DNA from: a candidate division TM6 bacterium GW2011_GWE2_36_25
Lineage (GTDB): Bacteria > Babelota > Babeliae > Babelales > UBA12409
Reading direction: 5' to 3'
DNA: 64,000 nt
NCBI GenBank assembly: GCA_000991575.1
Contig: LBRU01000009.1
Span: 698-64,697, forward strand
Notes under the pieces: generated by a model
Database searches by the model: none
What the model was told of the DNA's origin: nothing
What the model saw: only the letters and a program-made list of their open reading frames with translations
Position numbers and translations under genes: made by a program
In this document: positions 6,373 to 41,932 of the stretch, in pieces
Layout of the letters: each line of letters starts with the position of its first letter
Position numbering within the stretch: position 1 is the first letter of the stretch

Positions 6373-6577
6373 GAACCTCGCAGCAAGCTACGAGGTATAA
6401 CGCTCGTATGGTTCGACTTGCTACATCCTGGGCAAAGTCGAAGGGTCACCACGAGCGCGCTCATCCTGATGCTTCGTCTGCGCTCAGCACTAAAGGCTGC
6501 GCTCATCCTGAGCTTGTCGAAGGATATGAGCGAATATAATGATTATGAAGCAAGCTTCGAGGAGTTTTACCTGTAAA
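6367..6577. repeat. composite hairpin-repeat element, family 1 (copy A, 211 bp, contains one 42-bp unit)
   Basis: It aligns end to end with the reverse complement of 20775-20943, with about 10 substitutions plus one extra 42-bp unit (TGCTTCGTCTGCGCTCAGCACTAAAGGCTGCGCTCATCCTGA). It contains the hairpin modules CGCTCGT...ACGAGCG and CGCTCAT-CCTGAG-CTTG-TCGAAGG-AT-ATGAGCG (6500-6532). Confidence 0.85.
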
Positions 6578-8004: not shown

Positions 8005-10305
8005 ATGAAAAGTTCACGTTTTTTGAGCATATTTTTATTATGCTCAACACTTCTTAATACTCAGATAACAACCGCAATGGATGGCGCTGATCAACAACAT
8101 CAAAGTACACAAAGCTCTTCCGAAACACACGTTTCAGAGGAACCCTCATCACCAGAGACACCCCCAATAGATGAACAAATTGAAACATCTTCAGAAACAC
8201 CTGTGTCAGAAGAGGCCGAAGAACTCGTATCACCAGAGAGATCCCAAATAGATCAACAAGTTGAAAACATTCCTTCAGAAACACATTTGGCACAAGAGGT
8301 TATTGAAGAAGATACATTTCATGAATCAGAAGCTGAAAGCGAAATGCCTGCAATTCAATTTGATGATGAACTTTCAGTATCGGATGAAAAGCCAAAACGA
8401 TCTATTCTATTTTCACTTCTATCTTCATTCATTAACTGGGGTGGTCATATCGTTGGAAACGCCCTGGCTGAAGGATTAGAAGAAGTAAGAAGAATGGTAA
8501 TTCAAGAAGCGGCACGAAGGGGTCAAAGATATGTTGCGGGCAAAGTAGTTACTTTAGCCCAAACCGCAGCACCCCATATTATGAACGCAACACACTCTAT
8601 TTATCGTAAATCATATGATTTTTCTGATAGGCACCCCGTTCTCTCATTATTCACACCTTCAACACTAGCAACTCTTTCTGGAATAACGGTCGCCTCCCTG
8701 GCCGCAAAAAGCGACTTAGTGCCAACCTGGGTAAAAGTTCTCGCTGTTGGTGGAGGAGCTTACTTTGGCGCACTTCAATTAGAAGCACCGTTTCAAGTTC
8801 TTCGTGGCAAACGCTTTTTCATACAACAAGATCATCAAGATTCTCCATCTCTTGAAGAAATCTTTCGATCACAACCAAGAATAATTACAAAAATTATTGA
8901 TACATTACGTGATCAAGATCTTTATGGTGGCTTTTATTATGAAACAAATGGCACAATCTCAGTCTACGGTGAAAATTCTTCAGCTGAAGATAAGCGCAAT
9001 GTTATCAGAGCAATTGCTCGAGAAGCAAACATACCCGTCTTCTTTATAACAAAAGAAGATTTTGAAAATTCTCCAGAAAATGCTCTTAATACCGTACTCA
9101 AAATCATTAAAAAAGCAGATGCCGCAGCTTTTGCTTATAATACCACCTGCTCATTTGTCTGTTTTGAGAACTTCATGGAATTGTTTAATGAATATGAAGA
9201 AATAAGAAACTTGATATCAAGCATTAGATTATGGAACCCATTATATTCTCTTCACCGCATCATATTTTGGGGCATAAATCAACAAGAATCACATGATGAA
9301 CGTCTGAGAGATCAGTTCTTCTCATTTAAATTACAGCTTACACAATCAAGCGAAGGCCATGAAGCAGCGGCCCCATCATTAAAAGTAATACCTCAACATA
9401 TTCCAACCTTTAAGCCAATTAATTTTAGGGAAGACAAGAAAAACGAATTACCATGTTATGAAGCTAGCGATTTAACACTCGAAGATATTACTGGCGGTTA
9501 TCCTGAAGCAATCGAAGTAATTGTTCATGAATTATCAACTCAGACCCCTGGCCAAGGTGCTGATGGAGTCTTATTATGGGGAAAACCCGGCACCGGAAAA
9601 ACAAGACTTGCTCGTGCATTAGCCGGAACATTTAATGTGCCCTTTTTTAACGTTAAGATTTCACGCGTATTACAAGAAGGAACAAACGCAGGAAACTTCA
9701 TCAATGCTCTTTTTGAAAATGCACATAAAAAAGCAATCAGTGATAAGTCAAAATATGCAATTATATTTTTTGATGAATGCGACAGTCTCTTGCAACCACT
9801 TTCTAAAATAACAGATCCAACTATACGATCAGCAAACGTTGCTCTTCGTTCACAATTGAGTGGTTTCACGCAAGACAAAAAAGTTATCTGTATTGCTGCT
9901 GCAAACTCATCACCGAATAAATTAGATGAAGCATTGCTTCGACCAGGAAGATTTGGCACCCACATTCACTTCAAATTACCCAATGCACAAGCTCGTCAAG
10001 AAGTACTGATTTATTACTTATCAGAAATGGAAGATCCTGCGGAAGCTCAAAGAATTGGGAAAAATTTTGTATACGATACCAAAGGGTTTTCTCAAGCAGA
10101 CCTTGAACAGCTCGTTAAAGATTCAAGACGATGGGCAGAAGCATTTGGCTCAACCATCGAAAAGCAACTACCAATCGTATTATCCAATATGAAAAAAAGC
10201 AAAAATCGTGTCACTAAAGACAGATTGGAAGATGAAGCTTATGCGTATTCATCATCAGAAGATGAGGATGATGTTTTAGGCACCGGCAAAGAAGAAGTAG
10301 AATAA
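8005..10305 (+). CDS. membrane-anchored AAA+ ATPase with signal peptide and acidic N-terminal repeats
   Basis: Walker A GKPGTGKT, Walker B IIFFDECD, and second region of homology ...LDEALLRPGRFGTHIHFKLP. There is an N-terminal signal peptide, about 2.3 copies of an ~80-bp acidic repeat (SSETHVSEE..PE..IDEQIE; 8110-8300) and two central hydrophobic segments. No protease domain is present. Confidence 0.8.
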   Translation: MKSSRFLSIFLLCSTLLNTQITTAMDGADQQHQSTQSSSETHVSEEPSSPETPPIDEQIETSSETPVSEEAEELVSPERSQIDQQVENIPSETHLAQEVIEEDTFHESEAESEMPAIQFDDELSVSDEKPKRSILFSLLSSFINWGGHIVGNALAEGLEEVRRMVIQEAARRGQRYVAGKVVTLAQTAAPHIMNATHSIYRKSYDFSDRHPVLSLFTPSTLATLSGITVASLAAKSDLVPTWVKVLAVGGGAYFGALQLEAPFQVLRGKRFFIQQDHQDSPSLEEIFRSQPRIITKIIDTLRDQDLYGGFYYETNGTISVYGENSSAEDKRNVIRAIAREANIPVFFITKEDFENSPENALNTVLKIIKKADAAAFAYNTTCSFVCFENFMELFNEYEEIRNLISSIRLWNPLYSLHRIIFWGINQQESHDERLRDQFFSFKLQLTQSSEGHEAAAPSLKVIPQHIPTFKPINFREDKKNELPCYEASDLTLEDITGGYPEAIEVIVHELSTQTPGQGADGVLLWGKPGTGKTRLARALAGTFNVPFFNVKISRVLQEGTNAGNFINALFENAHKKAISDKSKYAIIFFDECDSLLQPLSKITDPTIRSANVALRSQLSGFTQDKKVICIAAANSSPNKLDEALLRPGRFGTHIHFKLPNAQARQEVLIYYLSEMEDPAEAQRIGKNFVYDTKGFSQADLEQLVKDSRRWAEAFGSTIEKQLPIVLSNMKKSKNRVTKDRLEDEAYAYSSSEDEDDVLGTGKEEVE

Positions 10306-13637: not shown

Positions 13638-15101
13638 TTATTGCCAACTTTTTCTTAAGAAGTTTTTATATGCATCAAATATTTCTCGATTTTGGCTTAA
13701 CTTCTGCCTTATCTGTTTAAAGGCAAAACGCTTAATTTCTTCATTTTCTAATTTGAGAAATTCGGGCAAGAAATCAATAAACCTAATAGCATCTTCGGTA
13801 TAAACCGTCTGTTCTAATATAAAGCGTTTTATAAATTTTATCACACAAGACATTCTTCGGTCTTCTTGAATTTCATTTATATTTCTCACAATTTCATGAA
13901 CCATTTCCAGATTATTGTTTGAGTAAGCGTACTTTAACAAATCAATGAGAGATCGAGGGTTTATTTTTTCTGCTCCTTTTTTCATGAGTAAAAGAGCAAT
14001 TTTTATATTTCTGAGTGTATCACGATGGATTCCTTTTGTTGCAAAATCTAATACAGACCAACCTTCTGCATCGGTAAGAGTAATATTCGCCCGGAACCTT
14101 AGAAGCTCTTTGGCGGTTTTTCTATTTGCAGATAAAGCGGCGCTCATTAAAGCGGTAACGCCATCTCTGTTTGCTCGATTAATATCAGCACCATTTTCAA
14201 GAAGTAAACGAATAATTTCCGGAGTACCAAGTTCTGCGGCAAACATCAATGGTGATATTCCTGCTCGATAGACAAGAATATCACGTTCATATTTATAGGG
14301 ATCATTTGGATCCAGACCCTTTTTTATGAGCGCTTCAACAGCTATGACGTTATGAGAATGAATAGCAGTAAATAAAGGTGGTTCGCTATATGGCCCATGA
14401 GGAGTTCTAATATCGGCACCATGATTAATAAGAATTTGAACGATTTCGTTGTATCCATGCATTATAGCAAATTGTAAAAGAGTAAGGCGATCAGAGGAAA
14501 AAGAAGTGTCGTTGAGATTAAAACCAGGCATCATTACCAAATGTCTTGTTTGTTCTATATTGTTATTTTTTACTGCTTCGATTAATTGCATTTGACTATT
14601 AGAGGCACCATGATCGAGAAGAAGTTGTGCCATTTCAGTATATCCCTGAGCTCGTGCAAATTCTAAAAGAGTATGGCCTTCAAGCATTAACGACCAAATA
14701 TTGAGTTCTATACCGGGTATTGTTATAAGATCATGTGCACGATCTATATTGTTATTTTTTACTGCCTCAATTAATTTCATTTGACTATTATATGCACCGT
14801 GATCAAAAAGAAGTTGTGCGATTTCCGTATACCCATGACTTTGAGCAAATTCTAAAAGGGTAAGCCCTTCAATTGTTAAATAACAAGTATCGAGGTTAAT
14901 ACTTCCACTTGTGATAAGCTCCGATGCCTGCTTTACATTATTAGTTTTTATTGCTTCGATTAATTGTTCAGTGAGCCATTCGGTGGTGCGGAAAAATCTT
15001 GCAATTGATAAAGGCAGATGGTCCAAAAACTCAGCTTGTGCCGGCGATAAGCCCAAAAAATTATTGACAAAAAGGAGATTTTTAAAATTTTCATATCGCA
15101 C
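13638..15101 (-). CDS. ankyrin-repeat protein
   Basis: Multiple ANK consensus stretches (TPLMFAAELGTPEIIRLLLENGADINRANRDGVTALMSAA). In addition there are three ~62-aa tandem repeats (LIEAVKNNNI...LLEFA.A.GYTE.AQLL.DHGA). Confidence 0.85.
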   Translation of the reverse strand: MRYENFKNLLFVNNFLGLSPAQAEFLDHLPLSIARFFRTTEWLTEQLIEAIKTNNVKQASELITSGSINLDTCYLTIEGLTLLEFAQSHGYTEIAQLLFDHGAYNSQMKLIEAVKNNNIDRAHDLITIPGIELNIWSLMLEGHTLLEFARAQGYTEMAQLLLDHGASNSQMQLIEAVKNNNIEQTRHLVMMPGFNLNDTSFSSDRLTLLQFAIMHGYNEIVQILINHGADIRTPHGPYSEPPLFTAIHSHNVIAVEALIKKGLDPNDPYKYERDILVYRAGISPLMFAAELGTPEIIRLLLENGADINRANRDGVTALMSAALSANRKTAKELLRFRANITLTDAEGWSVLDFATKGIHRDTLRNIKIALLLMKKGAEKINPRSLIDLLKYAYSNNNLEMVHEIVRNINEIQEDRRMSCVIKFIKRFILEQTVYTEDAIRFIDFLPEFLKLENEEIKRFAFKQIRQKLSQNREIFDAYKNFLRKSWQ

Positions 15102-20632: not shown

Positions 20633-20774
20633 AAGTTTTCCTCCATTTGAAGTTATACTAATAGTTTACCTTTTTTTAAAAAAAACTCAAGAAAAACGGG
20701 GCTTTAAAAACCCCGAATAAAAGTGGTTAAAAACAACACAAATTTAATAAACGTTGAAATAGGCTATTTAATTG

Positions 20775-20943
20775 TTTATAGGTAAAATTCCTCGAAGCTT
20801 GCTTCGCAATCATTGTATTCGCTCATATCCTTCGACAGGCTCAGGATGAGCGCGCTCGTGGTGACCCTTCGACTTTGCTCAGGATGCAGCAAGTCGAACC
20901 ATACGAGCGTTATACCGCGTAGTTTGCTATGAGGTTCTTAATT
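20775..20943. repeat. composite hairpin-repeat element, family 1 (copy B, 169 bp, inverted relative to copy A, lacks the 42-bp unit)
   Basis: Its reverse complement aligns over its full length with 6367-6577, apart from the single 42-bp unit. Confidence 0.85.
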
Positions 20944-20960
20944 GGAAATAAAAACAAAGC

Positions 20961-21194
20961 ATTCACCATGAGCGAGCTTGAAACGGAGTGAAAAGTGAGT
21001 CGAATGGTTTTATCGAACGCTCTTCGTTAAACTTTCTTTGTAATTCAGAAAAATAGAAAACTTTATCGTGCGTTCGGTGAGACCCTTCGAGACACTCGCT
21101 ACGCTCGTTCCTCAGGGCGAACGCGTTAGGTAAAATGGTAAGAATGAAGAATGCGTTCGCCCTGAGCGAAGTCGAAGGGTTTTATCGAACGCGA
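20961..21194. repeat. cluster of three family-2 hairpin modules (fwd 20961-21020 degenerate, rev 21068-21125, fwd 21151-21194)
   Basis: The modules share GCGTTCG..CCTGAG..TCGAAGGG..CGAACGC with the arms at 28155-28300 and 32403-32763. For example, 21152-21192 reads TGCGTTCGCCCTGAGCGAAGTCGAAGGGTTTTATCGAACGC. Confidence 0.75.
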
Positions 21195-21241
21195 GAAGTA
21201 AAAATTATCTTAAAATAAGGATATCAACAATTATCGTAAAT

Positions 21242-21880
21242 TTATTTTTCTGATTTACCAGCTTCTTGAGAAGAAGCATTATCATCAGGTATAAACTTTT
21301 CCGATACTTCAGTTTCTTCTTTTCTCTCAGTTGAAATTTCTTCAGGTTTATAAAAGCTGCTCTCTTTAAAATCATCCCAAATATCTCGTCCAACCGCATA
21401 TAACCCGGCTAAGGTTGCACCCGCAACAGCCATTTTTACCGGAAATCGCGCAACTTTACCTAAAACAATGCCTGATCCTAAACACAAGAGATTTTGCTTC
21501 GTAGATGATAAACCATTCCAATACTGTTGTGCTCTTTTTCCACAAACAAGACTTTTACCTAAAAATTCAACGCTTTCTTTCTTGAATGATCGATAAAAAT
21601 TACGACTTTTCTCATTCAAAGATGTACAAATTTGACAACGCTCCACACTCACCTCAGGTGAAAAGTCGGTTAAAGGAATAACCAAATCTTCTCCTAACCC
21701 CATAGGCACAATACCGGTGCTTGGTAAAAATTCAATTGGTTCAACCTTTTGAGCTTCAGAAATCACTTGAACCTGAGAACCTTTAAAAAATCCTGATAAG
21801 TATTCAAGCGGATTGAAAGCCTGAATTGAAGAGAGTGAAAATAAGGTTAAAAGAGAGAAAACTAAAATTTTCTTATTCAT
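21242..21880 (-). CDS. secreted paralog family C, member 2
   Basis: Signal peptide MNKKILVFSLLTLFSLSSIQA and the motif YWNGLSSTKQNLLCLGSGIVLGKV. The C-terminal tail is acidic. Confidence 0.5.
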   Translation of the reverse strand: MNKKILVFSLLTLFSLSSIQAFNPLEYLSGFFKGSQVQVISEAQKVEPIEFLPSTGIVPMGLGEDLVIPLTDFSPEVSVERCQICTSLNEKSRNFYRSFKKESVEFLGKSLVCGKRAQQYWNGLSSTKQNLLCLGSGIVLGKVARFPVKMAVAGATLAGLYAVGRDIWDDFKESSFYKPEEISTERKEETEVSEKFIPDDNASSQEAGKSEK

Positions 21881-22099
21881 AAAGAACCCCCATTAAAAAT
21901 TTATATTTAACGTTTTCATTCTACCAAAACTGCCAAAAATTGCAAGAAGAATTTAAAGTTTTACTTTTAGTTTTTAGAGGATTGTCGAGATATCAAAATA
22001 TTTTCTTTGAAAAATATTCAAACACCTTTTTTAAAAAGTTTTTAAAATTTTGATGCAATACATTACTCCTGTTACACTAATTCTGCGTAAAGGAGTTTT

Positions 22100-24289
22100 A
22101 TGGATTTCGCTGAATTTTTATCAACCGAATTAAATAACGAACAACAAAAAGCGGTTAGGCATGCAAAAGGACCTCTTCTGGTTATTGCGGGTGCAGGCTC
22201 AGGCAAAACGCGTGTTATAACCAGTCGCATTATCAACCTTATACTCACCGAAAAAGTTACTCCAACTTCAATTATTGCATTAACGTTTACTAATAAAGCT
22301 GCCCAAGAAATGCGTGAACGCGTACAAAAAAGCATTGGCATACCGGCCACTCCTTTTAAAAATAACAGTTTTTTTATTGGAACTTTCCATTCTTATTGCT
22401 TGCGACTTCTTAAAAAAAATGCACACATTTTAAAACTCGATCATTTTTCCATTCTCGATGGCGATGATCAAATAAGCATGTTAAAGAAATTAGTTGATGC
22501 GCATTGCCCTAAAAAAATTCAACCACGCCAAGCTCTTTATCAAATATCCACCCTCAAAAACAATCTCCTCAACCAGCAAGAAACACTCATTGATCCTACC
22601 GTACAAGAACTTTATAATTTATATGAACACGAAAAAAGATTAAGCAACTGTTTAGATTTTGACGATTTACTCATTAAAGCACTTGAACTTTTCAGCTCAA
22701 AAAATTTTAAAACAGCACACCAAAATCATATTCGTCATGTTCTTGTTGATGAATATCAAGATACGAATGTTGTGCAAAATGAATTGCTCAAAGAAATGTG
22801 CCTCGATAAAAAAAAATTCATCATCGATTCACTCTGTGCCGTAGGAGATGAAGATCAATCTATTTACTCATGGCGTGGTGCAACGATTGATAATATGCTC
22901 AATTTCAAAAAAGATTTCCCCGGAACAACACTCATAAAAATTGAACAGAACTATCGCTCAGTAAAACCAATTCTTGAAGCGGCAAATCATATCATTAAAC
23001 ATAATCAAAATCGCCATCCGAAAAAATTGTGGTCAACACGTGAAGGCTCAAACAATATTTTGGAGCTTACGTGCATGTCCGGATTTCAAGAGGCGGATAT
23101 GATTGCGGCAAGTGCTTCATTGTTACAACAAAAAAATGAATTACAAAATTGTGCAGTCCTCTACCGCACCCATTTTCAATCACGTCTTATTGAAGAAGCA
23201 TTAATAAAAAAATCAATTCCGTACAAAATTATCGGCGGCATTCAATTTTATGAACGCAAAGAAATTAAAGACCTGCTCGCCTATTTACGTTTATTAATTA
23301 ATCCTTTTGATAGAATTGCGCTTTTTAGAATACTCAACTGCCCTCCTCGCAGATTGGGTGACAAATTCGCAGAACAATTTCAAAAAGCATGGGAACAAGA
23401 ACCATTTCAAACATTTACTGATATTGCACAAAAACTTTTAGAAGATTTAAAACCTCAACAAAAAAGCAACCTTGAAGATTTTATTAATATTTTCTCATCG
23501 ATAGATCTCTCTTTTTCCCCTGCGCACGCAATCAACCACATGAGCAAAAAATGTGGTTACCTCACTTATCTTAAGGAAGAGTACGAACCCCAAGAAGCAG
23601 AGGCACGCATTCAAAACATTCAAGAATTAATTAATGCTGCTCGCTATTTTGAAGAACAGGGATTAGAAACCACTGAACAATTTCTTCAAGAAATTGCCCT
23701 TTTACAAGATAAAATTAACCAAGAAAATAACACGAACGAACGCCTAACCCTCATGACTATTCACGCAGCAAAAGGACTCGAATTTGACACAATCATTCTT
23801 GCAGGGCTCGAAGAAGGACTCTTGCCCAGTTCAAAATCCCTCGAAAATGAGTCAAATATCGAAGAAGAGCGACGATTATTATATGTAGGTATCACAAGGG
23901 CACGCAAAAAATTAATTCTCTTACAAGCAGGATATCGACACACTTTCGGTTCTATGACTTATCAACAACCCTCTCGCTTCCTCAAAGAACTACCCAATAC
24001 GGGCATTCAGAGGGAAGATTGCTCATATTGGAAAGAATGTCAGACAATTCAATTTTTACGCAGTTTTTTCGGCATAATAGCACCAGAACAGTCAATCCAA
24101 ACCTTTGGCCCCGCAAAAAAATTTAAGGCAGCCTCTAAAAAAGATCTGCACTCGTATCCTTCGACAAGCTCAGGACGAGCGCAGCCTTTAGTGCTGAGCG
24201 AAGCCGAAGCATCAGGACGAGCGCAGCCTTTAGTGCTGAGCGAAGCCGAAGCATCAGGACGAGCGCAGCAGGACGAGCGCAGCCTTTAG
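22100..24289 (+). CDS. uvrD: UvrD/PcrA-family ATP-dependent DNA helicase, helicase core; reading frame terminated inside a repeat array
   Basis: Motif I GAGSGKT, motif II VDEYQDTN, YRS, and motifs V/VI (TIHAAKGLEF...YVGITRARKKL). The final ~45 aa are translated repeat (SGRAQPLVLSEAEA). The TAG stop at 24287-24289 is created by a 14-nt partial repeat unit. Confidence 0.9.
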   Translation: MDFAEFLSTELNNEQQKAVRHAKGPLLVIAGAGSGKTRVITSRIINLILTEKVTPTSIIALTFTNKAAQEMRERVQKSIGIPATPFKNNSFFIGTFHSYCLRLLKKNAHILKLDHFSILDGDDQISMLKKLVDAHCPKKIQPRQALYQISTLKNNLLNQQETLIDPTVQELYNLYEHEKRLSNCLDFDDLLIKALELFSSKNFKTAHQNHIRHVLVDEYQDTNVVQNELLKEMCLDKKKFIIDSLCAVGDEDQSIYSWRGATIDNMLNFKKDFPGTTLIKIEQNYRSVKPILEAANHIIKHNQNRHPKKLWSTREGSNNILELTCMSGFQEADMIAASASLLQQKNELQNCAVLYRTHFQSRLIEEALIKKSIPYKIIGGIQFYERKEIKDLLAYLRLLINPFDRIALFRILNCPPRRLGDKFAEQFQKAWEQEPFQTFTDIAQKLLEDLKPQQKSNLEDFINIFSSIDLSFSPAHAINHMSKKCGYLTYLKEEYEPQEAEARIQNIQELINAARYFEEQGLETTEQFLQEIALLQDKINQENNTNERLTLMTIHAAKGLEFDTIILAGLEEGLLPSSKSLENESNIEEERRLLYVGITRARKKLILLQAGYRHTFGSMTYQQPSRFLKELPNTGIQREDCSYWKECQTIQFLRSFFGIIAPEQSIQTFGPAKKFKAASKKDLHSYPSTSSGRAQPLVLSEAEASGRAQPLVLSEAEASGRAQQDERSL

Positions 24290-24644
24290 TGCTGAGCGAA
24301 GCCGAAGCATCAGGACGAGCGCAGCCTTTAGTGCTGAGCGAAGCCGAAGCATCAGAACGAGCGCAGCCTTTAGTGCTGAGCGAAGCCGAAGCATCAGGAC
24401 GAGCGCAGTCTTTAGTGTTGAGCGAAATCGAAGTATCCGCGCAACCCTCAAGAGAAAGCCATTTTTCAATTCAACATTCCTCTAACAAAAATTTCAATCA
24501 CCAAAAAATAAATTTTTCTGCGAAACACAATACTCCAATAAATAACGATCTAAAAAAGAATAGCAATTACCCCCATAATTCAATTAACACAAAATTAAAA
24601 ACGCACAACGACGCGCTCGTCCTGAGCTTGTCGAAGGATACGAG
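24151..24644. repeat. repeat-bounded insertion inside uvrD/pcrA: 32-bp perfect inverted repeats (24151-24182 / 24613-24644) enclosing a 42-bp tandem array and an AT-rich core
   Basis: Left arm CTCGTATCCTTCGACAAGCTCAGGACGAGCGC is the exact reverse complement of right arm GCGCTCGTCCTGAGCTTGTCGAAGGATACGAG. Both are family-1 hairpin modules. Confidence 0.85.
24171..24436 (+). repeat. 42-bp tandem repeat array (6 units plus one 14-nt partial unit at 24255-24268)
   Basis: The unit is CAGGACGAGCGCAGCCTTTAGTGCTGAGCGAAGCCGAAGCAT. Units start at 24171, 24213, 24269, 24311, 24353 and 24395 (the last is degenerate). Confidence 0.9.
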
Positions 24645-24828
24645 CACATCGATGTGCTTTCAAAAATGTGAATACTCATGGAAAAAGCATCAACCGGTTA
24701 CGCACAAAACATTTGGTGTTGGAGTAATTCAAGATGTAGAAAAAAGGCCGGATGGTTCAACACACATCACGGCCAAATTTAAAAATGGTATCAAAAAAAT
24801 TGATAGCAAATTTTTAGAAGCAGTTTAA
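24289..24828 (+). CDS. uvrD: detached C-terminal segment of the same UvrD/PcrA helicase (different frame)
   Basis: It ends in WKKHQPVTHKTFGVGVIQDVEKRPDGSTHITAKFKNGIKKIDSKFLEAV. This is the conserved PcrA/UvrD C-terminal Tudor-like domain (W..G..V.H..FG.G.V......V.F...G.K.L...F). It has no start codon or RBS of its own other than a GTG inside the repeat. Confidence 0.7.
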   Translation: MLSEAEASGRAQPLVLSEAEASERAQPLVLSEAEASGRAQSLVLSEIEVSAQPSRESHFSIQHSSNKNFNHQKINFSAKHNTPINNDLKKNSNYPHNSINTKLKTHNDALVLSLSKDTSTSMCFQKCEYSWKKHQPVTHKTFGVGVIQDVEKRPDGSTHITAKFKNGIKKIDSKFLEAV

Positions 24829-34364: not shown

Positions 34365-35727
34365 TTGCATTCTTATTTTATTTGGTGCCTTGGGTGATTT
34401 GGCAAAGAAAAAAATTATTCCGGCGCTCTATTCACTAGTACACAAAGAGCAGCTCGACAATTTACACATCATCGGCACTGATTTAGCAAATATCTCAAAA
34501 CATAACATGCTCAAAGCTGCACAAGAACTTTTGCCTGAAATCGATGAAAAAACATGGCATGCATTTGAACAAATTACACATTATCAGCAACTCGATATTA
34601 ATAATTTAGAAGACTTTAAAAAACTAAAAGAATTTATTGAGGTTATAGAAAAGAAACACAATCTTTCTGGAAATCGATTAATATATTGTGCGACACCATC
34701 AGATCTTTTTAGCACGATTACCAAACAGAGTCATGCTGCCCGCATTATTACCTGCACGTCAATTGAAGAAAGACCATGGCAACGCATTATTTATGAAAAA
34801 CCTTTCGGGCGTGATTACACATCGGCAAAAAAACTTAATAAAGAAATTCACAATTGCCTCAATGAGACACAAGTTTATCGCGTTGATCATTATCTCGCAA
34901 AAGAGCTTATTGCCAATATCACGTTACTGAGATTCACCAATCGAATGCTTGAACCGCAATGGAATCATCATGACATTGCATCGGTAGAAATTATTTTAGA
35001 TGAAGAAATCGGTGTAGCACATCGTGGAAATTATTATAATCAAACAGGCGCTCTTCGCGATGTGGTACAAAATCACATATTTGAACTTCTTGCGTTAGTA
35101 AGCATGGAACCACCGACGACTATTACCGGATCAGACTTACAAGAAAAACGTGCTGAGGTTCTCAAAAATCTTTCTTTCGACAGCGGCATTCTCGGACAAT
35201 ATGAAGGATTTCGTACAATCGATGGTGTAAAAAAAGATTCTATGACAGAAACGTTTGCAGCTCTAAAACTCTTTGTTAATAACGAACGCTGGAAAGGTGT
35301 TCCTTTTTACATTCGTACGGGCAAATGTTTACAAAAAACTAAAAAATTAATTCATCTCAATTTTAAACCAGAACATTGTCGTTTAATCGCCGGCTGTCCA
35401 TTACCCGCAAACCGTTTAACCATTGCTATTGAACCTCACGCAGGATTTTCGCTTGAACTTAATGCAAAAAAACCTGGTTACACAACTACCGTTGTTCCTA
35501 TCACGATGGAATTTTGTCATGAATGTTTATTCGGCGTTTATACACCTCAGGCATATGAAGTAATTTTATTAGAAGTCATTGATGGCGACCAAGGAATCTC
35601 GGTCCGCTTTGATGAAATTGAATACAGCTGGAAAATTATTGATGAAATTTATCGCAAACAATTACCTCTCTATTTTTATAAATGCGGAAGCAATGGACCA
35701 GATGAAGAATTTGAGGGAAAAATATGA
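34357..35727 (+). CDS. zwf: glucose-6-phosphate 1-dehydrogenase
   Basis: N-terminal LFGALGDLAKKKIIPALY, the active-site motif RVDHYLAKE, and EKPFG. It overlaps pgi by 8 nt. Confidence 0.9.
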   Translation: MRDCILILFGALGDLAKKKIIPALYSLVHKEQLDNLHIIGTDLANISKHNMLKAAQELLPEIDEKTWHAFEQITHYQQLDINNLEDFKKLKEFIEVIEKKHNLSGNRLIYCATPSDLFSTITKQSHAARIITCTSIEERPWQRIIYEKPFGRDYTSAKKLNKEIHNCLNETQVYRVDHYLAKELIANITLLRFTNRMLEPQWNHHDIASVEIILDEEIGVAHRGNYYNQTGALRDVVQNHIFELLALVSMEPPTTITGSDLQEKRAEVLKNLSFDSGILGQYEGFRTIDGVKKDSMTETFAALKLFVNNERWKGVPFYIRTGKCLQKTKKLIHLNFKPEHCRLIAGCPLPANRLTIAIEPHAGFSLELNAKKPGYTTTVVPITMEFCHECLFGVYTPQAYEVILLEVIDGDQGISVRFDEIEYSWKIIDEIYRKQLPLYFYKCGSNGPDEEFEGKI

Positions 35728-36716
35728 AGATCGGCATCATTGGTTTAGGAAAAATGGGAAGCGCAATTGCCACACGACTTGCACAAGGAGATCATGATGT
35801 TATTGGTTATGATCCACATGTAAAAATAACCATTAACCGGGTAAAACAAGTTGACGCACTCCAAGCAATCACTCAACAAGAGATTATTTGGCTTATGGTT
35901 CCTGCAGAAGCCATTGATAAAATCTTGCAAGAACTTACACCCCATTTAATTGAAAAAAACATATTGAAAGGCTGCGCTCGTCCTGATGCTTCGTCTACGC
36001 TCAGCACTAAAGGCTGCGCTCGTCCTGATGCTTCGTCTACGCTCAGCACTAAAGGCTGCGCTCGTCCTGAGCTTGTAATTATTGATGGCGGAAACAGTTT
36101 TTATAAAGATTCTAAAAGACGTGCAAGCACATTGGCAAAATCAAACATTTTTTATCTTGATTGTGGAACCTCTGGTGGCATTCATGGATTAAAAGATGGT
36201 TTTTGTTTAATGATCGGTGGCAATGAAGATGCATTTAAAAAAGCAGAACCCATTTTCGAAACAATTGCAGCAAAAGATGGTTATGCCCTAGTTGGTCCTT
36301 CTGGCGCAGGTCATTATGTCAAAATGGTGCATAATGGAATTGAATACGCGTTACTCCAAAGTTATGCAGAGGGCTTTTCAATTTTACACGCAAGCCGACA
36401 ATTTCCCCATTTAAATTTAGAACAAATAAGTGGCTTATGGATGCATGGTTCAATTATACGTTCCTTTTTACTTGAATTAACTCATGAAATTTTTAAAGAA
36501 AAAATAGATTTTAACAAAATTAAAGGAATAATTGGAGAAAGTGGCACTGGTAGATGGGCACAAGAAGAAGCAAATTTATTAGGCCTTAATACACCGGCGC
36601 TTGAAAGTGCTTTGAAAACGAGAAAAGAATCACAGATAAAGGGCGACTCGTTTACCATGAAACTCATCGCCCTTTTACGAAATAAATTTGGTGGCCATCC
36701 TGTTGAAAAAGAATAA
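35724..36716 (+). CDS. gnd: 6-phosphogluconate dehydrogenase (short, YqeC/Gnd-like form) carrying an in-frame repeat insertion
   Basis: MKIGIIGLGKMGSAIA Rossmann start, IIDGGNS, GTSGG and GAGHYVKMVHNGIEYA. A 36-aa insert (KGCARPDASSTLST x2 plus KGCARPEL) sits directly before IIDGGNS. Confidence 0.85.
   Translation: MKIGIIGLGKMGSAIATRLAQGDHDVIGYDPHVKITINRVKQVDALQAITQQEIIWLMVPAEAIDKILQELTPHLIEKNILKGCARPDASSTLSTKGCARPDASSTLSTKGCARPELVIIDGGNSFYKDSKRRASTLAKSNIFYLDCGTSGGIHGLKDGFCLMIGGNEDAFKKAEPIFETIAAKDGYALVGPSGAGHYVKMVHNGIEYALLQSYAEGFSILHASRQFPHLNLEQISGLWMHGSIIRSFLLELTHEIFKEKIDFNKIKGIIGESGTGRWAQEEANLLGLNTPALESALKTRKESQIKGDSFTMKLIALLRNKFGGHPVEKE
35967..36076 (-). repeat. 42-bp unit array (about 2.6 units) inside gnd, opposite orientation to the uvrD array
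   Basis: ATGCTTCGTCTACGCTCAGCACTAAAGGCTGCGCTCGTCCTG occurs at 35986-36027 and 36028-36069, with partial units on both sides. It is the reverse complement of the 24171-24436 unit with 3-4 substitutions. Confidence 0.85.
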
Positions 36717-40402: not shown

Positions 40403-40749
40403 ACAATCTTAAATCTATTTTATGCTCAAATTATGTTACCTTTGCGTGCGCATTAATCTTGGGTTACAGTTTATGGCTCATGTTATCTCACAATCAAATT
40501 ATTCAACAAAAAATTACTATTCCCGTAACGATTTACAAAACAAAGAACACGGTAGATATCACCACCTCGATTGAAGCCATGATTGAAGGAGCTCGTCATC
40601 AACTCAGATCAATGTATTATCATCCACCAAAAGTGGCCATTTATCGCGATGAACGCCCCGGAAATCCTGTTCAAATTTATGCAGATGATATTTTGTTACC
40701 TGAAACTTTAAGCGTCATCAATTATTGGCCACACGAAATTACAAACTAA
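40399..40749 (+). CDS. short YbbR/CdaR-like membrane protein
   Basis: There is a 4-nt overlap with the CdaA-like gene. An N-terminal TM (FACALILGYSLWLML) is followed by a beta-rich segment (ITIPVTIY), the usual CdaA-CdaR arrangement. Confidence 0.35.
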   Translation: MNNLKSILCSNYVTFACALILGYSLWLMLSHNQIIQQKITIPVTIYKTKNTVDITTSIEAMIEGARHQLRSMYYHPPKVAIYRDERPGNPVQIYADDILLPETLSVINYWPHEITN

Positions 40750-40837
40750 ATTTATGAGCACATAAAATTTCTTCTTCGGTAGTGTGAAGATTTTTTCTAT
40801 GTTCATCAAAATAATTTAAAAATGATAAATCACCAAA

Positions 40838-41932
40838 TTATAAACCTAAGCGTGCAGATAAAGAACATACCAATGGAATAGAAACCAAAGTCAAGCCGTA
40901 ATTTATCAAATCAACTCCAAGATTAGGTGAAATTTTCGCTGAAATAAAACCAGAAGAGAATGCATAAAGACCTATTATTAGAAAAGTAGATTTACTTGGT
41001 ACATCGAATATCTGATGCATCCCTAAAGCAAATTCTCTTTGAACATAACCTCTTAATGTTAATCGCCTATCGGTTTGAATACCAATCGAACTTCCTTCTC
41101 GTGCTAACACTGAATATAAGGATGATGCAAACATAGGAAACCTAACTGCAAAATCACATTCAGTCATTTGATCACGTTTATCAGCAAGTTCCTTGCCCAA
41201 ATATCTCAGAACATCATATTCAGCAAATTCCTTAAAAAGAGTGTCAAAATCTTGATAATTCAAAGAATTAATCAATCCTTCCCTCAAACTATGTATTACT
41301 AAAAATTGTCCTATTGTTCTCACTGTTACCGAAGGTACTCGTAAACCCTCCAGACTGAAATCTTCCACCATTGGTTGACATGGCAATAATAAATTGCGCT
41401 CAAAACGCTTCTTTAAAAAACCATCAACAAGAAATTTAAGACCCTTTTTTTCACATTGTGCATAAGATTCTTTTGTGCAACGCATTAACTGTCTATATCT
41501 TTTTACAAATTCTTGTAAACAAGAAAGCGCTCTTAAAATATCCAAAATCTCATCCTTAATAAGTTGCATACAAAAATAATCTGCAAGACGATAACACTCT
41601 AAAAGATTTTCTAAACTCATCTTAGACATCTGAGATTTTCTACTTGTTGAATCATTCAGCAATGAAACAAATAATTCAATTATCTCTGAAGGTGCATCAA
41701 CATCAAGGCATTCATCTTTAAACAAAGGTAATGTTTCACGAGCAAGCGTTCCTGATTCAAAAAGCTCTCTCCCCTCTGATTGAAATGCCGTTCGTGGTAA
41801 AAAACTATCAAAAAGAACAGCATCAACTACAAATTCTTTTCCATCAGAACTCTTTAATTTAATGTCATTGGCATCTAAACCAAATATAGTTAAACATCCC
41901 AACCAAAGCGCCAATATATTATATTTTTTCAT
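40838..41932 (-). CDS. secreted/membrane protein with N-terminal Skp1/BTB-POZ-like domain
   Basis: Start placed at MKKYNILALWLG (ATG 41932), preceded by AGGGGTGAT. IKLKSSDGKEFVVD... strongly recalls the Skp1 N-terminus (IKLQSSDGEIFEVD). There are hydrophobic C-terminal segments. Confidence 0.4.
   Translation of the reverse strand: MKKYNILALWLGCLTIFGLDANDIKLKSSDGKEFVVDAVLFDSFLPRTAFQSEGRELFESGTLARETLPLFKDECLDVDAPSEIIELFVSLLNDSTSRKSQMSKMSLENLLECYRLADYFCMQLIKDEILDILRALSCLQEFVKRYRQLMRCTKESYAQCEKKGLKFLVDGFLKKRFERNLLLPCQPMVEDFSLEGLRVPSVTVRTIGQFLVIHSLREGLINSLNYQDFDTLFKEFAEYDVLRYLGKELADKRDQMTECDFAVRFPMFASSLYSVLAREGSSIGIQTDRRLTLRGYVQREFALGMHQIFDVPSKSTFLIIGLYAFSSGFISAKISPNLGVDLINYGLTLVSIPLVCSLSARLGL

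What the first reader, a model, noticed from the sequence alone, without database searches (positions are those of the whole stretch)
24151..24644. Repeat-bounded ~490-bp insertion sitting in frame inside the UvrD/PcrA helicase, between the core and the C-terminal Tudor-like domain
A 32-bp perfect inverted repeat encloses the insertion. The left arm is 24151-24182 (CTCGTATCCTTCGACAAGCTCAGGACGAGCGC) and the right arm is 24613-24644.

Inside lie six copies of a 42-bp (14-codon) unit and an AT-rich, Asn/Lys-rich core.

The whole stretch is stop-free in the helicase frame. The arms translate as ..HSYPSTSSGRAQ.. and ..DALVLSLSKDTS.., and the units as SGRAQPLVLSEAEA.

The insertion separates helicase motif VI from the conserved C-terminal domain (WKKHQPVTHKTFGVGVIQDV...).

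The arms are the same hairpin module found intergenically at 6500-6532 and 20815-20850. This looks like selfish DNA colonising a protein-coding gene while preserving the frame, analogous in principle to Rickettsia palindromic elements, but the sequence family differs.
Basis: partly seen in the sequence, partly recalled or inferred. Interest (0 to 1): 0.8.

Follow-up and report, generated by a model that had tools for sequence, protein, structure and literature searches.

The report
Palindromic repeat inserted inside helicase gene
A GC-rich hairpin-and-tandem-repeat element of about 480 bp sits inside the flexible tether of the PcrA/UvrD helicase of an uncultured Dependentiae (TM6) bacterium, much like the "selfish" palindromes known from Rickettsia genes, and the apparent break in the gene here is most likely an assembly error.

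Summary
The repeat structure is real: a perfect 32-nt inverted repeat (24151-24182 / 24613-24644), a 42-nt tandem array and a 172-nt AT-rich core. The "stop-free" claim is wrong for this sequence. An extra 14-mer (24255-24268) shifts the frame, so the helicase ORF stops at 24289 and the C-terminal domain lies in another frame. Sibling scaffolds have N-gaps inside this array, one at exactly that position. Independent assemblies give in-frame proteins with 4 and 8 units. The frameshift is therefore probably an assembly artefact.

All 19 orthologs and one close relative (87.7% DNA identity) lack the segment, so it is an insertion into the disordered linker before the Tudor-like domain. It belongs to a modular family: B hairpin 57 nt, unit 42 nt, C arm 33 nt, all multiples of 3. 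Copies also lie between genes (6401-6532, 20820-20909) and in frame in a 6PGDH-like gene (35967-36074) and a 2'-5' RNA ligase.

The 6PGDH insert occurs in graded states across lineages, which suggests an old, eroding insertion. The arm core is an exact 22-mer shared by many phyla. No Rfam family, transposase link or published name was found. Verdict: an RPE-like new member of a known kind, mobilisation mechanism unknown.

The parts
22100..24289 (+). PcrA/UvrD helicase ORF as it stands in this assembly (729 aa = KKQ02838.1). It is cut off by TAG 24287-24289 inside the repeat array.
   Evidence: ORF list. Pfam UvrD-helicase 7e-80 and UvrD_C 1e-72. PDB 1pjr PcrA E 9e-143 over residues 4-633. Database name and source.
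24151..24182 (+). Left C arm, forward orientation. It is itself a small hairpin: CTCGT-AT-CCT[TCGACAAGCTC]AGG-ACGAG. The outer CTCGTAT is also present in the insert-free relative.
   Evidence: Perfect inverted repeat. Module alignment. DNA fold -4.9 kcal/mol. Empty-site comparison.
24170..24435 (+). Tandem array of 42-nt (14-codon) units encoding SGRAQPLVLSEAEA. Five near-identical copies plus a degenerate last copy (24394-24435). The true copy number is unresolved: 4, 6 and 8 or more in different assemblies.
   Evidence: Sibling proteins with 4 and 8 units. Scaffold gaps inside the array.
24255..24268 (+). Extra 14-mer CAGGACGAGCGCAG that shifts the reading frame. Most likely an unmerged contig-end overlap (assembly artefact).
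   Evidence: Spacing 42, 42, 14, 42, 42, 42. Sibling scaffold L124 has a 75-N gap starting right after the same 14-mer; L122 and L123 also have N-runs in the array. P0126 and P0129 are in frame.
24436..24612 (+). AT-rich, Asn/Lys-rich core of the insert (about 30% GC), origin unexplained. It is absent from the insert-free relative and from all orthologs.
   Evidence: Composition. No similarity to units, the B module or any fetched locus. Absent in L001 and orthologs.
24613..24644 (-). Right C arm, inverted copy, 32/32 complementary to the left arm. Translated here as ALVLSLSKDTS.
   Evidence: Long-range pairing of the arms in the RNA fold of 24140-24655, z = -5.6.
24289..24828 (+). Second ORF (179 aa = KKQ02839.1). 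It holds the rest of the array, the core, the right arm and the C-terminal Tudor-like domain (W at 24679 to 24825). In reality it is probably the continuation of the helicase.
   Evidence: CTD profile hits UvrD/PcrA C-terminal domain structures 6yi2, 7egs, 4c2t and 5dma. AF2 all-beta domain with pLDDT about 91.
6401..6532 (-). Intergenic canonical composite of the same family: B hairpin 6401-6457, one 42-nt unit 6458-6499, C arm 6500-6532 (132 nt).
   Evidence: DNA folds: B -10.6 kcal/mol (z -2.9), C -7.5 kcal/mol (z -2.4).
20746..21240 (.). Intergenic mosaic block of about 495 nt holding C arm 20820-20852, B hairpin 20853-20909 and further related GC-rich hairpins (for example 21070-21131). 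The whole block is absent from the sister lineage.
   Evidence: Alignment with L001 1701-1960 shows the block missing, with no clear target duplication.
35967..36074 (-). In-frame insert of the same family (2.6 units plus a truncated C arm) in the 6-phosphogluconate-dehydrogenase-like gene 35724-36716. It splits the NAD_binding_2 domain.
   Evidence: Orthologs lack it. Same-species variants of 343, 333, 330 and 329 aa are all in frame.

Best explanation
The segment 24151-24644 is a copy of a non-coding, modular palindromic repeat family (B hairpin, 42-nt unit, C arm) lodged in the naturally disordered, poorly conserved tether between the PcrA/UvrD helicase core and its C-terminal Tudor-like domain.

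Shown: it is absent from orthologs, and the same modules occur between genes and in frame in two other genes of the same organism.

Why it is tolerated (partly shown, partly inferred):
- Every module is a multiple of 3 nt long.
- Most frames of each module are stop-free.
- The site is a disordered linker.

The protein is therefore read through the insert with 130-190 extra disordered residues. The unit number changes in 14-codon steps, presumably by slippage or unequal recombination (inferred).

The frame break in this assembly is most likely an artefact: two contig ends inside an unresolved tandem array were joined without merging a 14-nt overlap.

The insertions appear old and vertically inherited, and are being eroded by in-frame deletions. 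The arms stay far more conserved than the neighbouring coding DNA, either through structural constraint or through homogenisation between copies.

The step that originally put the element there is not identified. No transposase and no clear target duplication were found. I infer trans-mobilisation or hairpin/microhomology-mediated copying, with selection keeping only frame-preserving events in essential genes.
For: Insertion:
- 19 orthologs (49-73% identity) have only a short variable linker at this position.
- P0128/L001 (87.7% DNA identity in the core) lacks all 480 nt.

Same family elsewhere. In-frame copies occur in 6PGDH and the 2'-5' RNA ligase P0140.

Artefactual frameshift:
- N-runs lie inside the array in L122, L123 and L124.
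- The L124 gap starts exactly after the 14-mer that is duplicated in the window.
- Contig-end fragments P0122-P0125 break in the array. P0126 (8 units, 932 aa) and P0129 (4 units, 876 aa) are in frame.

Coding compatibility:
- C is 33 nt, U 42 nt and B 57 nt.
- 4-5 of 6 frames are open.
- Four same-species 6PGDH variants are all in frame.

Disordered site:
- AF2 pLDDT is about 25 with no secondary structure for residues 665-853.
- This stretch sits between a confident core and a confident CTD.
- The CTD is homologous to solved UvrD/PcrA C-terminal domains.

Age and erosion:
- 6PGDH site states are B+spacer+2U+C (L132, 67% id lineage), 1-2U+C (this species), solo C (L134, 87% id) and empty (L133 and more distant orthologs).
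- The C arm is 32/32 identical between window and L134 while flanks are 83-86% identical. The L132 arm differs by a compensatory pair.
Against: - The frame is broken in the sequence as given, and I could not inspect reads. The 14-mer junction could be a real allele.
- Copy numbers from short-read assemblies are unreliable, so true unit polymorphism is unproven.
- No DNA-level copy of the in-frame JGI alleles could be fetched.
- No transposase, target-site duplication or donor copy was identified.
- The AT-rich core has no detectable relation to the family, so a single composite insertion is assumed, not shown.
- Perfect identity of the two arms and of five units would also fit a recent event.
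- Low pLDDT in the insert partly reflects the absence of homologs in the alignment.
- The protein census found only the 6PGDH and ligase hosts for this frame, so proliferation into genes may be modest.
Confidence: 0.75

Rival explanations
1. The frameshift is real. In this strain slipped-strand duplication of 14 nt inside the array has split the helicase into a CTD-less PcrA (729 aa) and a separate or untranslated 179-aa tail, that is, an incipient pseudogene or a naturally truncated helicase.
For: - The sequence as deposited has the duplication, and both ORFs were annotated separately.
- De Bruijn assemblers do not usually invent k-mers.
- A direct 14-nt duplication at a repeat boundary is a plausible slippage product.
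Against: - The break coincides with the scaffold-gap position in sibling assembly L124 from the same project.
- Two further scaffolds have gaps in the array.
- Other assemblies of the same species give uninterrupted 876- and 932-aa proteins.
- The downstream CTD is intact and conserved.
Confidence: 0.15
2. A recent, active MITE-type transposition. A TIR-bounded element (CCTTCGAC...GTCGAAGG) inserted into a pre-existing 12-nt palindrome CTCGTATACGAG in the linker with a 2-nt AT/TA target duplication. The relative L001 shows the naive empty site.
For: - Filled versus empty site comparison shows a 2-nt duplication and intact flanks.
- The arms are perfectly identical (32/32) and five units are identical.
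- TA duplications are typical of IS630/Tc1-mobilised MITEs (established knowledge).
Against: - The outer CTCRTAT/ATAYGAG is part of the module in every other copy and covaries with its partner. The L001 palindrome therefore looks like an element remnant, not a chance target.
- The same sister lineage also holds a reduced solo arm at the 6PGDH site.
- No TSD is seen at the intergenic block.
- No IS with matching ends was found.
Confidence: 0.2
3. The insert has been exapted. The expandable 14-residue units act as an adjustable spacer that tunes the reach of the RNA-polymerase-binding Tudor domain, and selection maintains the array.
For: - The insert lies exactly in the tether between the core and the CTD.
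- Unit numbers differ among assemblies (4, 6, 8 or more) and always in frame.
- The arms are conserved beyond the neutral expectation.
Against: - A close relative and all orthologs work without it.
- The same units sit in unrelated enzymes and between genes.
- Copy-number differences may be assembly collapse.
- Arm conservation is equally seen in non-coding copies.
Confidence: 0.08
4. The whole insertion is an assembly chimera: repeat reads from elsewhere were wrongly threaded into the helicase gene.
For: The family does mislead assemblers. P0133 is a chimera of the RNA ligase N-terminus and the 6PGDH C-terminus joined through the repeat. Several contigs break inside the array.
Against: Both junctions (helicase to left arm, and right arm to CTD) recur in independent assemblies from NCBI, TPA re-assemblies, JGI and ENA. 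The AT-rich core is unique to this locus.
Confidence: 0.02

Closest known systems
Rickettsia palindromic elements (RPE; Ogata et al. 2000 Science 290:347, summarised in PMC10969869)
   Same: - Non-coding palindromic repeats of about 100-150 nt found both between genes and in frame inside unrelated housekeeping genes of an AT-rich intracellular or host-dependent bacterium.
- The host ORFs stay open.
- Insertions sit at structurally permissive positions.
- Insertions are old, vertically inherited and decaying.
   Different: - The sequence family and host phylum (Dependentiae) are different.
- The element here is built from three separable modules and contains a tandemly expandable 14-codon unit.
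- Its arm core is shared across many phyla, whereas RPEs are confined to Rickettsia.
- Only three host genes are documented so far, against dozens for RPE-1.
- No direct sequence comparison with RPE consensus sequences was run.
REP / BIME mosaic elements and REPIN doublets mobilised by RAYT transposases (Bertels & Rainey 2011; Nunvar et al. 2010; from my own knowledge)
   Same: - Short imperfect palindromes combined in mosaic clusters, as in window 20746-21240.
- Inverted doublets with a short spacer occur in other genomes (L031, L040, L101).
- Stem covariation is present.
   Different: - REPs are typically extragenic and species-specific. Here the copies are also intragenic, and the core 22-mer is shared between phyla.
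- No RAYT was found next to the hairpins in 120 loci.
- The conserved 5' GTAG-type tetranucleotide of REPs is not evident.
Bacterial MITEs with intragenic in-frame copies (ERIC, Correia, QMITE1 of Coxiella, Anabaena MITEs; PMC10969869)
   Same: Terminal inverted repeats, no transposase gene, a size of 100-500 bp and occasional in-frame fusion with host ORFs.
   Different: - The target-site duplication is not established.
- No parent insertion sequence is known.
- The internal 42-nt array and the AT-rich core are unusual.
GC clusters of yeast mitochondrial DNA, including the in-frame cluster in var1 (from my own knowledge)
   Same: GC-rich palindromic modules scattered through a very AT-rich genome, present or absent between strains, sometimes inside a coding sequence without breaking it.
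   Different: An organellar system with an unrelated sequence, and different target and duplication rules. It is an analogy only.

Membership tests
Rickettsia palindromic elements (RPE) | Repeat able to form a hairpin, about 100-150 nt, multi-copy in the genome | tested here: met
   The canonical composite B+U+C is 132 nt (6401-6532). Module hairpins fold at -7.5 and -10.6 kcal/mol. At least 5 loci occur in about 85 kb.
Rickettsia palindromic elements (RPE) | Inserted in frame in protein-coding genes that remain open | tested here: met
   6PGDH-like gene and 2'-5' RNA ligase. The helicase is in frame in sibling assemblies P0126 and P0129 but broken in this window.
Rickettsia palindromic elements (RPE) | Sequence similarity to one of the RPE consensus families; host genus Rickettsia | not tested
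   No RPE consensus was available to compare. The host is Dependentiae. None of the 120 genome stretches carrying the arm core is from Rickettsia.
REP / REPIN (RAYT-associated) | Short imperfect palindromes, often as inverted doublets, with stem covariation | tested here: met
   Doublets in L031, L040 and L101. Covariation at the variable stem position: chi2 17.9, p 2e-5 over 166 unique copies.
REP / REPIN (RAYT-associated) | A cognate RAYT (Y1 transposase) gene flanked by the same repeats | tested here: not met
   phmmer of a Y1 transposase against 4160 ORFs from 120 hairpin-bearing loci gave one hit (L012). That hit is flanked by unrelated palindromes. The IS200-like gene in L134 has its own hairpins. 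Whole genomes were not scanned.
MITE | Terminal inverted repeats and no coding capacity for a transposase | tested here: met
   32-nt perfect inverted repeat. The insert has no Pfam domain (protein 2).
MITE | Target-site duplication flanking the element | tested here: inconclusive
   The helicase site allows a 2-nt AT/TA duplication, but the flanking heptamers are themselves part of the module. No duplication is seen at the intergenic block.
MITE | A related autonomous insertion sequence with the same ends | not testable with these tools
   This needs complete genomes of the lineage. Nothing was seen in the fetched loci.
PcrA/UvrD helicase (host gene) | SF1 helicase core plus C-terminal Tudor-like domain joined by a flexible linker | tested here: met
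   Pfam UvrD-helicase and UvrD_C. 1pjr E 9e-143. CTD profile hits 6yi2, 7egs and 5dma. AF2 gives a confident core and CTD with a low-confidence linker.

The most novel reading that the evidence does not exclude
The arm is one face of an undescribed pan-bacterial hairpin element, CRTCC-TTCGACARGCTCA-GGAYG(AGCG). Its 22-nt core is conserved exactly from Chloroflexota and Sphingomonadales to Acidobacteriota, Elusimicrobia and Dependentiae. It is maintained by structural constraint (compensatory stem changes; arms conserved above the level of flanking genes). It is either spread horizontally or recognised by a conserved cellular factor. In AT-rich, host-dependent Dependentiae it has entered essential genes in modules whose lengths are all multiples of three.
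Probability: 0.3. Interest if true: 0.75.

Novelty: new member of a known kind. Interest (0 to 1): 0.55.

Why it matters
It extends the RPE phenomenon, palindromic repeats living inside essential genes without destroying them, to a second and unrelated lineage of host-dependent bacteria (Dependentiae). That helps separate what is general from what is Rickettsia-specific. General features would be permissive disordered sites, stop-free modules of 3n length, and slow in-frame erosion.

It is also a practical warning. This family breaks or mis-joins short-read assemblies, producing split genes, scaffold gaps and a chimeric protein, so apparent pseudogenes in such MAGs need checking.

Finally, the arm core is an exact 22-mer shared across phyla. 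No Rfam family and no name in the searched literature matches it. If that holds, it is a tractable entry point to a widespread hairpin element of unknown function.

Tried and rejected
- Rfam at gathering threshold on the whole window, and at E<=1 on 24050-24750: only tRNAs, nothing on the element.
- Literature string searches for the peptide and DNA signatures (FDKLR, SLSKH, PELVEG, 11-16-mers): only irrelevant primer or peptide hits. Dependentiae + palindromic + repeat: nothing relevant.
- RAYT/IS200 link: rejected.
- Composite six-frame peptide query against the protein database: insensitive, only 3 hits, though it revealed the RNA ligase host.
- Exhaustive HMMER census with the 6PGDH insert peptide: only the same species' 6PGDH and ligase clusters plus unrelated low-complexity proteins.
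- Fetching DNA for the in-frame JGI proteins P0126 and P0129: not on record. Junction-specific metagenome scan: 0 hits. Unit scan: one unrelated intergenic copy, L170.
- The idea that the AT-rich core is decayed units or a decayed B module: no support against shuffles, and no BLAST hit to other loci.
- The 42-nt units as a stable hairpin: the fold is no better than shuffles.
- L063 (Babeliales) arm doublet inside a 503-aa ORF: no Pfam domain, so it was not counted as a host gene.
Full report
**1. What is in the sequence**

The inverted repeat is exactly as described. The arms are 24151-24182 and 24613-24644, 32 nt each, 100% complementary, with 430 nt between them. No match to the arm appeared in 100 shuffles.

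Between the arms lie:
- a 42-nt tandem array, with units in register from 24170;
- a degenerate last unit (24394-24435);
- an AT-rich core of 30% GC. The array is 58% GC and the window as a whole 37%.

One claim fails. The spacing of unit starts is 42, 42, 14, 42, 42, 42. An extra CAGGACGAGCGCAG (24255-24268) makes the bounded span 494 nt, which is 2 mod 3. The helicase ORF 22100-24289 therefore ends at a TAG inside the array, and the C-terminal domain is read in another frame (ORF 24289-24828).

**2. Source and host gene**

The 729-aa ORF is identical to KKQ02838.1, 'ATP-dependent DNA helicase PcrA', of candidate division TM6 (Dependentiae) MAG GW2011_GWE2_36_25. The 179-aa ORF is KKQ02839.1.

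- Pfam finds UvrD-helicase and UvrD_C up to residue 608.
- The best solved relative is PcrA 1pjr, E 9e-143, over residues 4-633.
- A profile of the last ~56 residues of 17 orthologs hits the solved C-terminal domains of UvrD and PcrA (6yi2 E 7.5e-4, 7egs, 4c2t 695-739, 5dma).

The 'Tudor-like C-terminal domain' label is therefore justified.

**3. It is an insertion**

In an alignment with 19 orthologs (49-73% identity), none has the array or the core. At this position they carry only a short, unconserved linker, usually 20-40 residues and occasionally about 100 unrelated residues.

The same 90% protein cluster holds P0128 (742 aa, contig L001, 87.7% DNA identity over the core). It lacks all 480 nt.

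At the site L001 reads GCACTCGTAT·ACGAGCG. The window reads GCACTCGTAT[CCTTCGAC...GTCGAAGG]ATACGAGCAC.

**4. The frameshift is probably an assembly artefact**

- Three sibling scaffolds of the same species (L122, L123, L124) have runs of 75-100 or more N inside this very array.
- In L124 (GCA_000991965.1, same project) the gap begins right after arm + 2 units + CAGGACGAGCGCAG. That is precisely where the window has the 14-mer twice.
- Four other database proteins are contig-end fragments that stop or start in the array.
- Two JGI assemblies give uninterrupted proteins of 932 aa (8 units) and 876 aa (4 units).
- Removing the 14-mer from the window gives a continuous 904-aa protein with 6 units.
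- L122 has 4 units + gap + 4 units, so the true number is probably 8 or more and is not resolved by short reads.

I could not inspect reads, so a real frameshift allele remains possible (about 15%).

**5. Anatomy of the family**

Comparing all copies gives three modules:
- B: a 57-nt hairpin, CGCTCGTATGGTTCGACTTGC...GCAAAGTCGAAGGGTCACCACGAGCG.
- U: the 42-nt unit.
- C: the 33-nt arm, itself a hairpin CTCGT-AT-CCT[TCGACAAGCTC]AGG-ACGAG.

The copies found are:

| Locus | Position | Composition |
|---|---|---|
| Intergenic | 6401-6532 | B+U+C (canonical composite) |
| Intergenic | 20820-20909 | C+B, inside a ~495-nt mosaic block of related hairpins (20746-21240) that is wholly absent from L001 |
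| Helicase | 24151-24644 | C + U×n + AT-rich core + inverted C |
| 6PGDH-like gene | 35967-36074 | 2.6 U + truncated C, in frame, splitting NAD_binding_2 |
| 2'-5' RNA ligase of the same organism (P0140, L125 10160-10335) | – | B-type half + 28-nt spacer + 2 U + C, in frame |

That makes three host genes in about 85 kb of this species' DNA.

All three modules are multiples of 3 nt, and 4-5 of their 6 frames are stop-free. The helicase uses one orientation and frame; the 6PGDH and ligase genes use another.

The modules fold only modestly as single strands: C -4.9 to -7.5 kcal/mol, B -10.6 kcal/mol, U no better than shuffles. The two helicase arms pair over the long range in the predicted RNA fold (z -5.6).

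**6. History**

The 6PGDH site is occupied in several lineages in graded states:

| Lineage | State at the site |
|---|---|
| L132/P0142 (67% identity) | B + spacer + 2U + C |
| This species | 1 or 2 U + C, with variants of 343, 333, 330 and 329 aa, all in frame |
| L134/P0141 (87% identity, same sample as L001) | Solo C arm |
| L133/P0143 and all more distant orthologs | Empty |

This fits one old insertion that is inherited vertically and eroded by in-frame deletions.

The C arm is 32/32 identical between the window and L134, although the flanking coding DNA is only 83-86% identical. At that level of divergence 0 changes in 32 nt is expected with a probability of about 0.01. The L132 arm differs only by the compensatory pair CTCGT/ACGAG to CTCAT/ATGAG. 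The arms are therefore either constrained or homogenised between copies.

The outer CTCRTAT...ATAYGAG belongs to the module in every copy. For that reason I read L001's CTCGTATACGAG as a palindromic remnant of a lost insert. That lineage also has the most reduced 6PGDH state. The alternative, a naive palindromic target with a 2-nt AT/TA duplication, is not excluded.

**7. The arm core is not private to this genome**

The hosts include:
- Chloroflexota (Dehalococcoidia, SAR202);
- Novosphingobium and other Sphingomonadales;
- Acidobacteriota, Elusimicrobia, Binatia, Wallbacteria and Methylococcaceae;
- other Dependentiae/Babeliales.

It also occurs in 35 IMG/VR contigs.

The flank not fixed by the search pattern is conserved as CRTCC. 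Its R covaries with the Y of the pattern: G:C 48, A:T 54, G:T 37, A:C 16 (chi2 17.9, p 2e-5; G:T over A:C p 0.005). These copies are not phylogenetically independent, so the p-values are indicative only.

Many genomes show inverted doublets with 26-40-nt spacers, which is a REPIN-like arrangement.

No Rfam family matches. No paper in the searchable library contains the signatures. No Y1/RAYT transposase is associated.

My recollection that these sequences appear as 'FDKLR.../...SLSK...' peptides in hypothetical proteins of many phyla was only a lead. The scan is the test.

**8. Consequence for the protein**

AlphaFold2 on the repaired 904-aa protein (alignment A1) gives:
- a confident core (pLDDT 80-93);
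- a confident all-beta C-terminal domain (residues ~855-904, pLDDT ~91);
- pLDDT of about 25 with no secondary structure for residues 665-853, which cover the native linker plus the whole insert (684-843).

Part of the low confidence reflects the lack of homologs for the insert. Even so, the site is the naturally variable tether. The insert most likely just lengthens a flexible leash.

**9. Mechanism, and what remains open**

Shown:
- the segment is an insertion;
- it belongs to a modular family;
- it is compatible with coding;
- it sits at a permissive site;
- it causes assembly problems;
- the arms are conserved.

Inferred:
- read-through translation;
- unit-number change by slippage;
- erosion by in-frame deletion;
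- selection filtering for frame.

Unknown:
- the mobilising activity (no transposase, no clear target duplication);
- the origin of the 172-nt AT-rich core;
- why a 22-nt core is conserved across phyla.

The protein-space census found only the 6PGDH and ligase hosts for the tested frame. I do not claim RPE-scale proliferation.

**10. Classification**

The element works like a Rickettsia palindromic element. The 2024 MITE review summarises RPEs as the extreme case of in-frame MITE fusions (PMC10969869). It also resembles REP/BIME/REPIN mosaics in form.

- It is not a demonstrated member of the RPE sequence families (not compared).
- It fails the RAYT-association test for REPINs.
- It is inconclusive on the target-duplication test for MITEs.

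I file it as a new member of a known kind: in-frame palindromic repeats in the genes of a host-dependent bacterium. The cross-phylum hairpin is the most novel thread left open.

Noticed in passing
window 35724-36716 (insert 35967-36074): The 6PGDH-like gene carries an in-frame insert of the same repeat family. Same-species assemblies differ by in-frame indels (343, 333, 330 and 329 aa). The window version lacks 13 residues of the arm (EGYEYRSELDNPI) that are present in P0134.
   Followed up: yes
L125 10160-10335 (GCA_000991385.1, same organism): The 2'-5' RNA ligase (P0140) has an in-frame insert bounded by a B-type half hairpin and an inverted C arm, with two partly AT-decayed units.
   Followed up: partly
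P0133 (ENA contig of 1209 nt): A chimeric protein: the RNA ligase N-terminus is fused to the 6PGDH C-terminus through the shared repeat. This shows the family causes mis-assemblies.
   Followed up: partly
window 20746-21240 versus L001 1768-1880: A ~495-nt intergenic mosaic of GC-rich hairpins is absent from the sister lineage. It includes a second hairpin type (21070-21131, CCTCAGGGCGAACG) that also occurs in L125 8583-8955. A short motif TTTATCGAACGC recurs three times.
   Followed up: partly
L134 3439-3876 (-) versus window 40749-40838: The sister lineage has an IS200-like Y1 transposase gene (PF01797, E 5e-36) with its own subterminal hairpins. The window has only ~90 nt at that position. 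It has no relation to the repeat family.
   Followed up: yes
L001 2769-3911 versus window 21880-22100: The sister lineage has an extra 380-aa gene with no Pfam hit on record between the 211-aa ORF and the helicase. The window has only a 220-nt spacer there.
   Followed up: no
L132 (P0142) versus L133 (P0143): Two 6PGDH genes are identical over the first ~60 residues and after the insert site, but differ sharply in the ~25 residues just upstream of it. One carries the full insert and the other none. This may be a recombination or conversion tract around the element.
   Followed up: no
L017 7920-8000; L020 (rc) about 2255: In other genomes the arm core lies directly next to a tRNA gene 3' end (Dependentiae L017) and directly upstream of an RNase P RNA-like 5' end (GAGGAAAGTCCGGGCTCC, Novosphingobium L020).
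   Followed up: no
window arms 6500-6532 and 20820-20852 versus 24151-24182, 24613-24644 and 36040-36074: Both intergenic arms carry GGATGAGCG, which gives a TGA in one frame. All genic arms carry GGACGAGCG, which is open in that frame, and the partner base changes to match. The sample is too small to interpret.
   Followed up: partly
window 14554-14966 and 8148-8299: Two other tandem repeats, of period 189 nt (2.2 copies) and period 81 nt (1.8 copies), lie inside ORFs and are unrelated to this family.
   Followed up: no
L063 4960-5050 (Babeliales MAG): An inverted arm doublet with a 14-nt spacer lies inside a 503-aa ORF that has no Pfam domain. It is a possible further in-gene copy in another Dependentiae species.
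   Followed up: partly
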